Shown piece by piece: positions 47,038 through 47,688 of a stretch of DNA of 52,288 bases. The notes below the pieces were generated by a model, which was not told the origin of the DNA, did not search any database, and was given only the letters and a program-made list of their open reading frames with translations. This stretch comes from Escherichia phage vB_EcoM_Bp10: the sequence record MN122072. One strand, 5' to 3'. The stretch's first letter is position 1. Each line of letters starts with the position of its first letter. The position numbers were made by a program, and so were the translations under genes.

Positions 47038-47688
47038 ATGATTACTGCAACACTCGTTGACCACATGGGCAGCGACCTTACAACTGTTAATGCTGCACGA
47101 GCTTCTTATGGTGCAGAGTCCCACGAGATGACATTGCGCGACGAGAAGCTGATTGAATTTCTCGCAAAGCATAAGCACAATACACCTTTTGCCCATGCGT
47201 ATGTAACATTACGCTGCACTGCACCAATATTTGTTGCACGCCAACTGGGTAAGCACCAGGTGGGCTTTCGTTGGAACGAAGTTAGCCGTCGTTACAAAGA
47301 TGGCGAAGCAATCGAAATTGAATGCTTTGTACCTGATGTGGTGTTTGGTCGTCCTGAAAAGTTGATGACTCAGACTGCACAACCATTGCCACAGGATTTT
47401 GCTGACGATATTCATTATCGCATGGAAAGCCACAACAAGGCTTGCATTGCAGAATATGAAACGTTAATTGGTTTGGGGATTGCTCCAGAGCAAGCCCGAA
47501 TGGTGTTGCCACAATCTATGATGACTACATGGATTTGGACTGGCTCTTTACTGGGCTGGGCTAATATGTACAAGCAACGCTCTACAGAGCACGCCCAATA
47601 TGAGGCACGTTTGTTTGCAGAAGAAGTCAATAAAATTATGTCAGAGTTGTTTCCTGTTTGCTGGGAGGCACTCATTAAACAGGAATAA
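47038..47688 (+). CDS. thyX: ThyX-like flavin-dependent thymidylate synthase homologue
   Basis: IFVARQLGKHQVGFRWNEVSRRY resembles the ThyX signature region, though the RHR triad appears as KHQ here. Confidence 0.55.
   Translation: MITATLVDHMGSDLTTVNAARASYGAESHEMTLRDEKLIEFLAKHKHNTPFAHAYVTLRCTAPIFVARQLGKHQVGFRWNEVSRRYKDGEAIEIECFVPDVVFGRPEKLMTQTAQPLPQDFADDIHYRMESHNKACIAEYETLIGLGIAPEQARMVLPQSMMTTWIWTGSLLGWANMYKQRSTEHAQYEARLFAEEVNKIMSELFPVCWEALIKQE

What the first reader, a model, noticed from the sequence alone, without database searches (positions are those of the whole stretch)
47038..47688. ThyX-like protein in which the conserved RHR triad appears substituted (KHQ)
The signature segment is recognisable but reads KHQ-x8-S where I expect RHR-x7-S. 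If real, the enzyme may have altered substrate handling or a non-canonical role. This rests on my recollection of the motif, so the assignment is tentative.
Basis: partly seen in the sequence, partly recalled or inferred. Interest (0 to 1): 0.45.

Follow-up and report, generated by a model that had tools for sequence, protein, structure and literature searches.

The report
Ordinary phage ThyX, variant-motif subfamily
The gene is a normal, well-conserved flavin-dependent thymidylate synthase (ThyX) of a phiEcoM-GJ1-like coliphage, and its 'KHQ' in place of the textbook 'RHR' is the regular signature of a large ThyX subfamily found in many phages and bacteria, not a sign of an unusual function.

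Summary
ORF 47038-47688 (+, 216 aa) is a full-length ThyX, and its K72-H73-Q74 aligns with T. maritima R78-H79-R80, followed by 8 rather than 7 residues before the catalytic Ser. There is no RHR elsewhere in the protein.

The interpretation does not hold. The window is a phiEcoM-GJ1-like phage (Chaseviridae), and the protein is 97.7-99.5% identical to GenBank proteins annotated as thymidylate synthase. KHQ-x8-SRRY is kept in 119 of the 120 closest homologues, through synonymous codon changes, with dN/dS of 0.07-0.10.

Of the 150 nearest 50%-identity cluster representatives, 144 lack the third Arg. The first position is always K or R, and 139 read S-R-R-Y.

The same signature occurs in unrelated phages (Kuravirus, Siovirus, N4-like, Demerecviridae, Autographiviridae). 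It also occurs in chromosomal thyX genes of Spirochaetia (beside pyrD and pyrF/E), Nitrospinota, Poribacteria and SAR202.

All dUMP-binding and catalytic residues are intact. The changes fall on residues that clamp the FAD phosphates in canonical ThyX. The phage also encodes a dUTPase and a dNMP kinase.

Verdict: an already-known, ordinary enzyme. One minor open point is that no structure of this subfamily is among the solved structures retrieved here, and I found no biochemical study of it.

The parts
47038..47688 (+). thyX coding sequence, 216 aa plus stop: flavin-dependent thymidylate synthase, orthologue of phiEcoM-GJ1 gp33
   Evidence: Pfam Thy1 1.8e-42. TIGR02170 129.8 bits against a cutoff of 87.9. 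97.7% aa identity to phiEcoM-GJ1 gp33 and 99.5% to vB_EcoM_JL1. AF2 model pLDDT 95.3, TM-score about 0.8 to T. maritima ThyX. dN/dS 0.07-0.10.
47029..47032 (+). GGAG Shine-Dalgarno-like sequence 5 nt upstream of the ATG
   Evidence: Read directly from the sequence.
47251..47259 (+). K72-H73-Q74, the counterpart of the canonical R-H-R triad (T. maritima R78-H79-R80)
   Evidence: phmmer alignment and MAFFT. Conserved in 119/120 close homologues, with synonymous codon variation.
47284..47295 (+). S83-R84-R85-Y86. It contains the motif Ser (Tm S88), the dUMP-binding Arg (Tm R90) and Tyr (Tm Y91). The additional Arg84 (Gly89 in T. maritima) marks the subfamily.
   Evidence: Position 89 is R in 139 of 150 representatives, but G/A/Q in all 9 canonical phage and Tm sequences examined.
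47176..47196 (+). H47-N-T49-P-F-A52-H53 segment. H47 = Tm H53 and T49 = Tm T55 (FAD contact) are conserved. A52 replaces Tm E58.
47239..47244 (+). R68-Q69 (Tm R74-Q75), nucleotide-pocket residues, conserved
47497..47499 (+). R154 (Tm R147), dUMP phosphate ligand, conserved
   Evidence: invariant in alignment A1.
47545..47553 (+). S170-L171-L172, the counterpart of Tm N163-A164-R165. The FAD-phosphate Arg (Mtb R190 / Hp R165) is replaced by Leu.
   Evidence: Role of the Arg from PMC6514825.
47578..47604 (+). R181 (Tm R174, activates dUMP N3), H185, Q187 and E189, all conserved
3730..4251 (+). dUTPase, 173 aa; supplies dUMP, the substrate of ThyX
   Evidence: Pfam dUTPase 1.2e-22. PHROG 135 5.7e-62. 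tblastn match to GJ1 gp44.
3101..3727 (+). P-loop protein of the deoxynucleoside monophosphate kinase family (GJ1 gp43 orthologue); would phosphorylate dTMP
   Evidence: PHROG 139 1.6e-38. No Pfam hit. GPPGCGKD P-loop seen in the translation.
47689..49455 (+). T7-type DNA primase/helicase. It starts directly after the thyX stop codon, placing thyX in the replication gene block.
   Evidence: Toprim plus DnaB_C/AAA_25 domains. 95% identical to GJ1 gp35.

Best explanation
The ORF encodes a working flavin-dependent thymidylate synthase (ThyX) of a phiEcoM-GJ1-like (Chaseviridae) coliphage. It belongs to a large subfamily whose signature is [K/R]-H-x-(x8)-S-R-R-Y instead of R-H-R-(x7/8)-S-x-R-Y.

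Inferred mechanism, by homology with T. maritima ThyX: a homotetramer binds flavin and dUMP at subunit interfaces. NAD(P)H reduces the flavin. The methylene of CH2-H4folate passes via flavin N5 to C5 of dUMP and is reduced to a methyl group, giving dTMP.

dUMP would be held and activated by the conserved R68/Q69, E81, S83, R85, Y86, R154 and R181. K72 would replace the first Arg as the positive charge facing N1/C2=O of the reduced flavin. The third triad position (Q74) is not constrained in this subfamily. Two arginines that clamp the FAD phosphates in canonical enzymes (Tm R80 and R165) are absent, and a new Arg (R84) next to the catalytic Ser may take over part of that role.

With the phage dUTPase and dNMP kinase, the enzyme boosts dTTP supply for phage DNA replication without consuming reduced folate.

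Shown here: family membership, fold, residue conservation, purifying selection, and the distribution of the subfamily. Inferred: enzymatic activity, FAD as the cofactor, and the compensating role of R84.
For: Family and fold: Pfam, TIGRFAM equivalog and PHROG hits above curated cutoffs. The AF2 model has pLDDT 95.3 and matches T. maritima ThyX at TM about 0.8.

Residues: all dUMP-binding and catalytic residues are conserved in the query and nearly invariant in 150 representatives. The first triad position is K in 131 and R in 19 of 150, so always basic. R78 of T. maritima faces N1/C2=O of FADH- (PMC11940539).

Selection: dN/dS is 0.07-0.10 against seven relatives with dS up to 3.5. The K/H/Q codons vary synonymously.

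Distribution in phages: the signature is found in Kuravirus, Siovirus, Paundecimvirus, Thalassavirus, Autographiviridae, Barbavirus and N4-like phages.

Distribution in bacteria: it is also found in chromosomal, non-prophage contexts. Examples are a 1.79-Mb Spirochaetia chromosome beside dihydroorotate dehydrogenase and OMP decarboxylase/PRTase, Nitrospinota beside AcrB/IspH/MlaA, SAR202 beside PDH E1b/E2, and Poribacteria.

Pathway context: the window holds a dUTPase and a dNMP kinase, and thyX sits in the replication block next to primase/helicase and DNA polymerase.
Against: I found no biochemical or genetic test of any member of the K-H-x/SRRY subfamily in the searchable literature. Every solved ThyX whose sequence I could read is of the RHR type.

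Two of the three arginines reported to hydrogen-bond the FAD phosphates and ribityl (PMC6514825) are missing, so cofactor binding cannot be taken for granted.

The proposed compensation by R84 is not obligatory. 11 of the 154 sequences without the third Arg also lack Arg at position 89. The correlation between these positions is confounded by shared ancestry.

The absence of thyA from the bacterial genomes that carry this type could not be checked.
Confidence: 0.85

Rival explanations
1. It is a thymidylate synthase, but the subfamily holds or uses its flavin differently from canonical ThyX. Possibilities include a re-arranged pyrophosphate clamp built around R84, weaker FAD binding, or a different flavin form or reductant preference. 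This refines the main explanation rather than excluding it.
For: The four positions that differ systematically between the subfamily and canonical enzymes are Tm E58, R80, R165 and G89. R80 and R165 are FAD-phosphate contacts according to PMC6514825. E58 as an FAD-ribose contact is from my memory of the T. maritima structure paper. No solved structure of this subfamily was seen.
Against: H47 (Tm H53), T49 (T55), H73 (H79), S170 (N163, a conservative change) and N176 (N169) are retained. K72 keeps the charge next to the flavin. The high-confidence AF2 model superposes on FAD-bound T. maritima ThyX. Nothing in the sequence points to a different cofactor.
Confidence: 0.25
2. It is a neofunctionalised ThyX-like enzyme that makes a different C5-modified pyrimidine or acts on another nucleotide, for example a PolB-like UMP methylase or a hydroxymethylating enzyme. 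This would give the phage non-canonical DNA or another product.
For: ThyX homologues with altered substrates exist: PolB (PDB 4p5a) is hit at E=4e-17. 5-hmdUMP is an acid-trapped ThyX intermediate (PMC3498832). The triad differs from the textbook motif.
Against: PolB itself has a canonical RHR, so a changed triad is not what marks substrate change. The query is closer to bona fide ThyX (E=2.5e-27) than to PolB. All dUMP contacts are conserved. No kinase, transferase or other hypermodification genes are annotated in the relative phiEcoM-GJ1. The same subfamily is a chromosomal gene next to pyrimidine-biosynthesis genes in bacteria. Known phage thymidine hypermodification starts from ThyA-type enzymes (PMC8989533).
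Confidence: 0.05
3. It is an inactive relic: a ThyX that lost cofactor binding and is decaying or retained for a non-catalytic role.
For: Two FAD-phosphate arginines are lost. One metagenomic relative (L088) has an in-frame stop codon.
Against: dN/dS is 0.07-0.10. Catalytic residues are invariant across 150 diverged cluster representatives. The gene is retained in many phage families and in bacterial chromosomes. HNH inteins are maintained inside the motif loop of some alleles, which is typical of essential active-site regions.
Confidence: 0.02

Closest known systems
Escherichia phage phiEcoM-GJ1 gp33 (YP_001595428.1) and its orthologues in Chaseviridae, annotated as thymidylate synthase / ThyX
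   Same: 97.7% amino-acid identity (99.5% to vB_EcoM_JL1). Same position upstream of primase/helicase and DNA polymerase. Same KHQ-x8-SRRY segment.
   Different: In phiEcoM-GJ1 an HNH endonuclease gene (gp34) sits between thyX and primase/helicase. The window lacks it, and lacks gp36 as well.
Thermotoga maritima ThyX (TM0449; PDB 1kq4, 1o26 and others), the structural and mechanistic reference for flavin-dependent thymidylate synthase
   Same: Same fold (TM about 0.8, 34% identity). A full-length alignment with E=2.5e-27. Conserved H53, T55, H59, R74, Q75, H79, E86, S88, R90, Y91, R147, R174, H178, Q180 and E182.
   Different: R78->K, R80->Q, one extra residue in the loop before the Ser, G89->R, E58->A, N163->S, R165->L. 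That is, the residues around the FAD phosphate/ADP part differ.
Canonical RHR-type phage ThyX (mycobacteriophage L5 gp48, Thermus phage P23-45, cyanophage MED4-213, Gordonia and Streptomyces phages)
   Same: Same family and the same presumed role in phage dTMP supply. Several of them also have 8 residues between the triad and the Ser.
   Different: They keep RHR, E58 and (mostly) R165, and have G/A/Q rather than R in S-x-R-Y. They are only 26-36% identical to the query.
PolB of Streptomyces cacaoi (PDB 4p5a), a ThyX homologue; that it is the UMP/dUMP C5-methylase of polyoxin biosynthesis is from my own knowledge (the PDB entry is deposited as 'Thymidylate synthase ThyX')
   Same: Thy1 fold and a detectable sequence relationship (E=4e-17).
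   Different: PolB has a canonical RHR and SARY and is more distant from the query than T. maritima ThyX. Nothing links the query to nucleoside-antibiotic synthesis.
ThyX encoded next to dfrE on Staphylococcus aureus / Enterococcus plasmids, and in Bacillus phage Taylor and Streptomyces phage Genie2
   Same: They share the S-R-R-Y signature and about 35-39% identity. Like the query, they lack the RHR triad.
   Different: The triad is replaced by K-Y-V/A and the loop carries a longer insertion (for example KYVIGSSHQEGTGDSFDAWNESSRRY).

Membership tests
ThyX / flavin-dependent thymidylate synthase (Pfam Thy1 PF02511; TIGR02170) | Full-length match to the curated family profiles above their cutoffs | tested here: met
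   PF02511 scores 145.8 bits (cutoff 24.8) over profile positions 1-191 of 191. TIGR02170 (equivalog) scores 129.8 bits (cutoff 87.9).
ThyX / flavin-dependent thymidylate synthase | ThyX fold | tested here: met
   The AF2 model has pLDDT 95.3 and pTM 0.90. All 50 listed Foldseek PDB matches are T. maritima ThyX, with TM 0.78-0.82 and E about 1e-18.
ThyX / flavin-dependent thymidylate synthase | Literal ThyX motif R-H-R-x7-S (Myllykallio 2002, as quoted in PMC2826268) | tested here: not met
   The query reads K-H-Q-x8-S. The literal motif is too narrow to define the family. 144 of the 150 nearest 50%-identity cluster representatives lack the third Arg, and canonical actinophage enzymes have x8. 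I therefore treat this as a failure of the motif definition, not of membership.
ThyX / flavin-dependent thymidylate synthase | Basic residue at the first triad position, facing N1/C2=O of the reduced flavin | tested here: met
   K72 in the query. K (131) or R (19) in all 150 representatives. Role from PMC11940539.
ThyX / flavin-dependent thymidylate synthase | dUMP-binding and activating residues (Tm R74, Q75, E86, S88, R90, Y91, R147, R174) | tested here: met
   All are present in the query as R68, Q69, E81, S83, R85, Y86, R154 and R181. They are nearly invariant in the subfamily.
ThyX / flavin-dependent thymidylate synthase | Arginines that hydrogen-bond the FAD phosphates (third Arg of RHR; Mtb R190 = Tm R165) | tested here: not met
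   Q74 and L172 in the query. In the subfamily these positions are Q/K/T/V and A/L/Y. Roles from PMC6514825. T49 (Tm T55 = Mtb S71) is kept.
ThyX / flavin-dependent thymidylate synthase | Bound FAD, homotetramer, and NAD(P)H- and CH2H4folate-dependent dTMP formation | not testable with these tools
   Needs purified protein or genetic complementation.
ThyX / flavin-dependent thymidylate synthase | Gene context consistent with dTMP synthesis (supportive, not defining) | tested here: met
   The window holds a dUTPase and a dNMP kinase, and thyX lies in the replication module. A Spirochaetia chromosomal homologue lies beside pyrD and pyrF/pyrE.
PolB-type UMP/dUMP C5-methylase (ThyX homologue of nucleoside-antibiotic pathways) | Closer in sequence to PolB than to bona fide ThyX | tested here: not met
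   4p5a gives E=4e-17 against 2.5e-27 for T. maritima ThyX. PolB itself keeps RHR.

The most novel reading that the evidence does not exclude
The [K/R]-H-x ... S-R-R-Y ThyX subfamily is widespread in phages and is the chromosomal ThyX of several bacterial phyla. It may bind its flavin through a re-built phosphate clamp: two canonical arginines lost, and a new arginine beside the catalytic serine. That could give it a different flavin affinity, flavin form or inhibitor profile from the T. maritima / M. tuberculosis type on which all structural and drug-design work rests.
Probability: 0.25. Interest if true: 0.4.

Novelty: already known. Interest (0 to 1): 0.15.

Why it matters
It matters little for this window. 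The gene is an annotated, conserved phage thymidylate synthase, and nothing suggests modified DNA or new chemistry.

The useful by-product is a caution for annotation. The textbook motif RHR-x7-S does not describe a substantial part of the ThyX family, and filters based on it (such as the one used in PMC2826268) will discard genuine enzymes.

If the remodelled FAD site were shown to change cofactor binding, it would interest people who design ThyX inhibitors or study flavin-dependent methylation. That point is speculative.

Tried and rejected
(1) I looked for the canonical RHR elsewhere in the protein and found none. The only [RK]H[RK] is K44-H45-K46, which aligns with Tm K50-H51-G52.

(2) I tried to read the mutagenesis and motif papers (Ulmer 2008, PMC2258874; Liu & Yang 2004, PMC515151). 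Neither is held. Residue roles therefore come from two reviews and a 2025 structure paper.

(3) Nine literature searches for a described K-H-Q variant, or for a characterised phage ThyX of this type, found nothing relevant.

It was rerun with the 12-sequence A2. Its search patterns include SRRY, so that sample cannot be used for motif frequencies, only for host range and gene context.

(5) I tested the idea that R84 compensates for the lost third Arg. The two states correlate: 143 sequences are non-R80 with R89, and 9 are R80 without R89. But 11 sequences have neither and 6 have both. The split follows clades, so this is suggestive only.

(6) The dN/dS value for contig L088 (0.72) was rejected as an artefact, because that contig has an in-frame stop at codon 29.

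(7) Borrelia lp54 ThyX, a candidate characterised relative, turned out to be of the canonical RHR type.

Full report
**What is there.** The window holds an ATG-initiated ORF at 47038-47688 on the + strand, 216 aa, preceded by GGAG 5 nt upstream. It matches the ThyX family end to end:
- Pfam Thy1 PF02511 gives E=1.8e-42 over profile positions 1-191 of 191.
- NCBIfam TIGR02170 'thyX' (equivalog) scores 129.8 bits against a cutoff of 87.9.
- PHROG 85 'thymidylate synthase' gives 1.7e-71.

An AlphaFold2 model built on a 55-sequence alignment has mean pLDDT 95.3. Its best PDB matches are all T. maritima ThyX, with TM about 0.8 and 34% identity.

**The observation.** phmmer aligns the query segment ARQLGKHQVGFRWNEVSRRY with T. 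maritima ARQWFRHRIA-SYNELSGRY. K72-H73-Q74 (47251-47259) therefore stands exactly where R78-H79-R80 stands, and one extra residue precedes the motif Ser (S83, 47284-47286). A MAFFT alignment with 150 cluster representatives, T. maritima and 17 named phage enzymes gives the same placement. No RHR occurs anywhere else in the protein.

**Where the window comes from.** The window is a circularly permuted phiEcoM-GJ1-like genome (Chaseviridae). A 12.3-kb stretch around the gene is 93-96% identical to Escherichia phages vB_EcoP_Bp7, vB_EcoM_JL1 and phiEcoM-GJ1. The protein is 99.5% identical to vB_EcoM_JL1 'putative thymidylate synthase' and 97.7% identical to phiEcoM-GJ1 gp33 'thymidylate synthase'. 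In phiEcoM-GJ1 the gene lies in the replication block: thyX, HNH, primase/helicase, HNH, DNA polymerase, exonuclease, ligase, gp43, dUTPase. The window has the same order without the two HNH genes.

**The substitution is conserved.**
- Of the 120 closest proteins in a 5.8-billion-sequence database (68-99% identity, mostly on contigs of about 52-55 kb), 119 have KHQ-x8-SRRY and one has KHS.
- Among IMG/VR relatives the three codons change synonymously (AAG/AAA, CAC/CAT, CAG/CAA) while K, H and Q are kept.
- Nei-Gojobori dN/dS between the window gene and seven relatives is 0.07-0.10, at dS from 0.12 to 3.5. An eighth contig, L088, has an internal stop and was excluded.

The gene is therefore under strong purifying selection, and so is the triad.

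**It is a subfamily signature.** An exhaustive phmmer search of 1.84 billion 50%-identity cluster representatives found 7064 ThyX-like clusters at E<=1e-3, of which 391 at E<=1e-30. In an alignment of the best 150 (40-59% identity to the query), the columns read as follows:

| T. maritima position | Residues in the 150 representatives |
|---|---|
| R78 | K 131, R 19 |
| H79 | H 139 |
| R80 | Q 79, K 24, T 17, V 8, R 6, others 16 |
| G89 | R 139 |
| E58 | A, R, G, S and others |
| N163 | S 132 |
| R165 | A, L, Y and others |
| R74, Q75, E86, S88, R90, Y91, R147, R174, Q180 | essentially invariant |

The nine canonical sequences in the same alignment all combine RHR, E58, a non-Arg at position 89 and, in eight of the nine, R165 (RcRios has H). 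These are T. maritima, Thermus phage P23-45, Gordonia Crocheter, Rhodobacter RcRios, Mycobacterium TinyTim and L5 gp48, Streptomyces Lika, Prochlorococcus MED4-213 and Acinetobacter TaPaz. The finding is thus one visible piece of a coordinated four-position difference between two ThyX types. The x8 spacing is not part of that difference, because Gordonia, Mycobacterium and Streptomyces phage enzymes with RHR also have x8.

**Distribution in phages.** tblastn finds ThyX in 1703 phage records. I sampled a list spaced evenly down that ranking. The K-H-Q/K + SRRY type was confirmed in the following:
- Kuravirus EC.W14-3
- Siovirus vB_LenP_ICBM1
- Pseudomonas phage TC6
- Vibrio phage Thalassa (Demerecviridae)
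- Aeromonas phage PS (Autographiviridae)
- Rheinheimera Barbavirus
- the N4-like Kosakonia phage Kc283

A more divergent K-Y-x form with a longer loop, still with SRRY, occurs in Bacillus phage Taylor and Streptomyces phage Genie2. About 19 of the 60 evenly spaced rows are non-RHR types. Some of these are inferred from neighbours in the ranking, and redundancy was not removed.

**Distribution in bacteria.** A scan of one genome per GTDB species with a subfamily alignment returned 61 loci. All loci that could be read carried the variant triad. Because the search pattern contained SRRY, this shows who has the variant, not how often it occurs. Many loci are on large chromosomal contigs, and several come from multiple MAGs of the same lineage: Nitrospinaceae x4, Poribacteria x3, Dependentiae/Babeliales x3, and Dehalococcoidia/SAR202. 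Pfam annotation of neighbours shows ordinary housekeeping genes and nothing phage-like:
- On a 1.79-Mb Spirochaetia chromosome: citrate synthase, aldo-keto reductase and SDR upstream; dihydroorotate dehydrogenase and an OMP-decarboxylase/phosphoribosyltransferase fusion downstream.
- In Nitrospinota: AcrB/HlyD, IspH and MlaA.
- In SAR202: pyruvate dehydrogenase E1-beta and E2, and an MFS transporter.
- In Dependentiae: MscS and RecD2.

The location beside pyrimidine-biosynthesis genes fits a genuine thymidylate synthase. I could not check that these genomes lack thyA.

**What the changed residues do.**
- According to PMC6514825, the AMP phosphate, the ribityl and the FMN phosphate of FAD hydrogen-bond to the RHR residues and to two further conserved residues. 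These are Mtb S71 and R190, which correspond to Tm T55 and R165. The first Arg also contacts the isoalloxazine.
- PMC11940539 shows the guanidinium of Tm R78 facing N1 and C2=O of FADH-, a role generally filled by any basic residue.
- PMC3498832 lists R78, R80, S88 and R90 among direct dUMP contacts.

In the query the basic residue is kept (K72), the His is kept (H73) and T49 is kept. The third Arg (Q74) and the R165 equivalent (L172) are gone, and a new Arg (R84) sits beside the catalytic Ser. The free variation of the third position (Q/K/T/V/M/S) shows that it is not needed in this subfamily.

R84 may have taken over phosphate binding, but this is an inference. It is weakened by 11 sequences that lack both arginines, and it is confounded by phylogeny.

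**Pathway context.** The window encodes a dUTPase at 3730-4251 (Pfam 1.2e-22; PHROG 135). It also encodes a P-loop protein of the dNMP-kinase PHROG 139 at 3101-3727. Together with ThyX these give dUTP -> dUMP -> dTMP -> dTDP. No hypermodification enzymes are annotated in phiEcoM-GJ1. Known phage thymidine hypermodification pathways start from ThyA-type enzymes, not ThyX (PMC8989533).

**Comparison with the known.** The protein meets every profile, fold and substrate-site criterion of ThyX. It fails only the literal 2002 motif and two FAD-phosphate arginines, and it shares those failures with a large, clearly functional subfamily.

It is not closer to the UMP methylase PolB: 4p5a gives E=4e-17 against 2.5e-27 for T. 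maritima ThyX, and PolB itself has RHR. All solved ThyX sequences I could read are RHR types. These are T. maritima, 6j61 and 4p5a, plus Mtb and H. pylori. No structure of the K-H-x/SRRY type therefore appears to exist. I also found no paper describing it, although two key motif papers could not be read.

**Verdict.** The suggested 'altered substrate handling or non-canonical role' is not supported. The gene is an already-annotated, ordinary phage thymidylate synthase of a common variant-motif subfamily. Two points remain of residual interest. The textbook motif is too narrow to define the family. And the FAD-phosphate site of this subfamily is remodelled and has not been characterised structurally.

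Noticed in passing
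window 47686-47691 and 49455-49521; compare L001 (phiEcoM-GJ1) 16986-17429 and 19254-19739: The window lacks both HNH homing-endonuclease genes (gp34, gp36) that flank the primase/helicase gene in phiEcoM-GJ1. The thyX stop codon directly abuts the primase/helicase start (TAAATG). tblastn with gp34 and gp36 found nothing in the window.
   Followed up: partly
P0137, P0200, P0228, P0244, P0258 (relatives of 473-601 aa): Several ThyX relatives carry an HNH-containing intein inserted inside the motif loop itself, for example KHQSGF|C...HN|SWNERSMRY, between the triad and the Ser. Inteins typically sit in essential active-site segments.
   Followed up: partly
L080 (S. aureus plasmid pNTUH_6457) 2471-3669; also Enterococcus lactis plasmid NZ_CP082266.1: Resistance plasmids carry a trimethoprim-resistant dfrE immediately followed by a thyX. 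Its motif region reads KYVIGSSHQEGTGDSFDAWNESSRRY, with neither RHR nor KHQ. A ThyX beside a DHFR resistance gene fits reduced dependence on dihydrofolate reduction.
   Followed up: no
window 3730-4251: The dUTPase is 173 aa and matches only residues 1-170 of the 199-aa phiEcoM-GJ1 gp44, so the C-terminus differs between these close relatives.
   Followed up: no
window 3101-3727: The orthologue of phiEcoM-GJ1 gp43 ('phage protein') has a GPPGCGKD P-loop and matches PHROG 139 (deoxynucleoside monophosphate kinase, 1.6e-38), but no Pfam family. It could be annotated more informatively in the public records.
   Followed up: partly
L088 (IMGVR_UViG_3300047457_000177) 1904-2545: A metagenomic Chaseviridae-like contig has an in-frame stop at codon 29 of thyX. 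This is either an assembly error or a pseudogene.
   Followed up: no
L032, L038, L054, L056 (Dependentiae/Babeliales and a Pseudomonadota MAG); L098: Some chromosomal ThyX of Dependentiae read K-S-S or L-S-K at the triad, and an IMG/VR contig reads R-S-T. Even the central His is therefore not universal in this subfamily.
   Followed up: no
window 45293-45529 and 45453-45662: There is an overlapping pair of small ORFs typical of an i-spanin/o-spanin pair. The second begins MFRKKCLAVLIAMSIVSC, with a lipobox-like Cys. Only the first is annotated (Rz-like spanin) in phiEcoM-GJ1.
   Followed up: no
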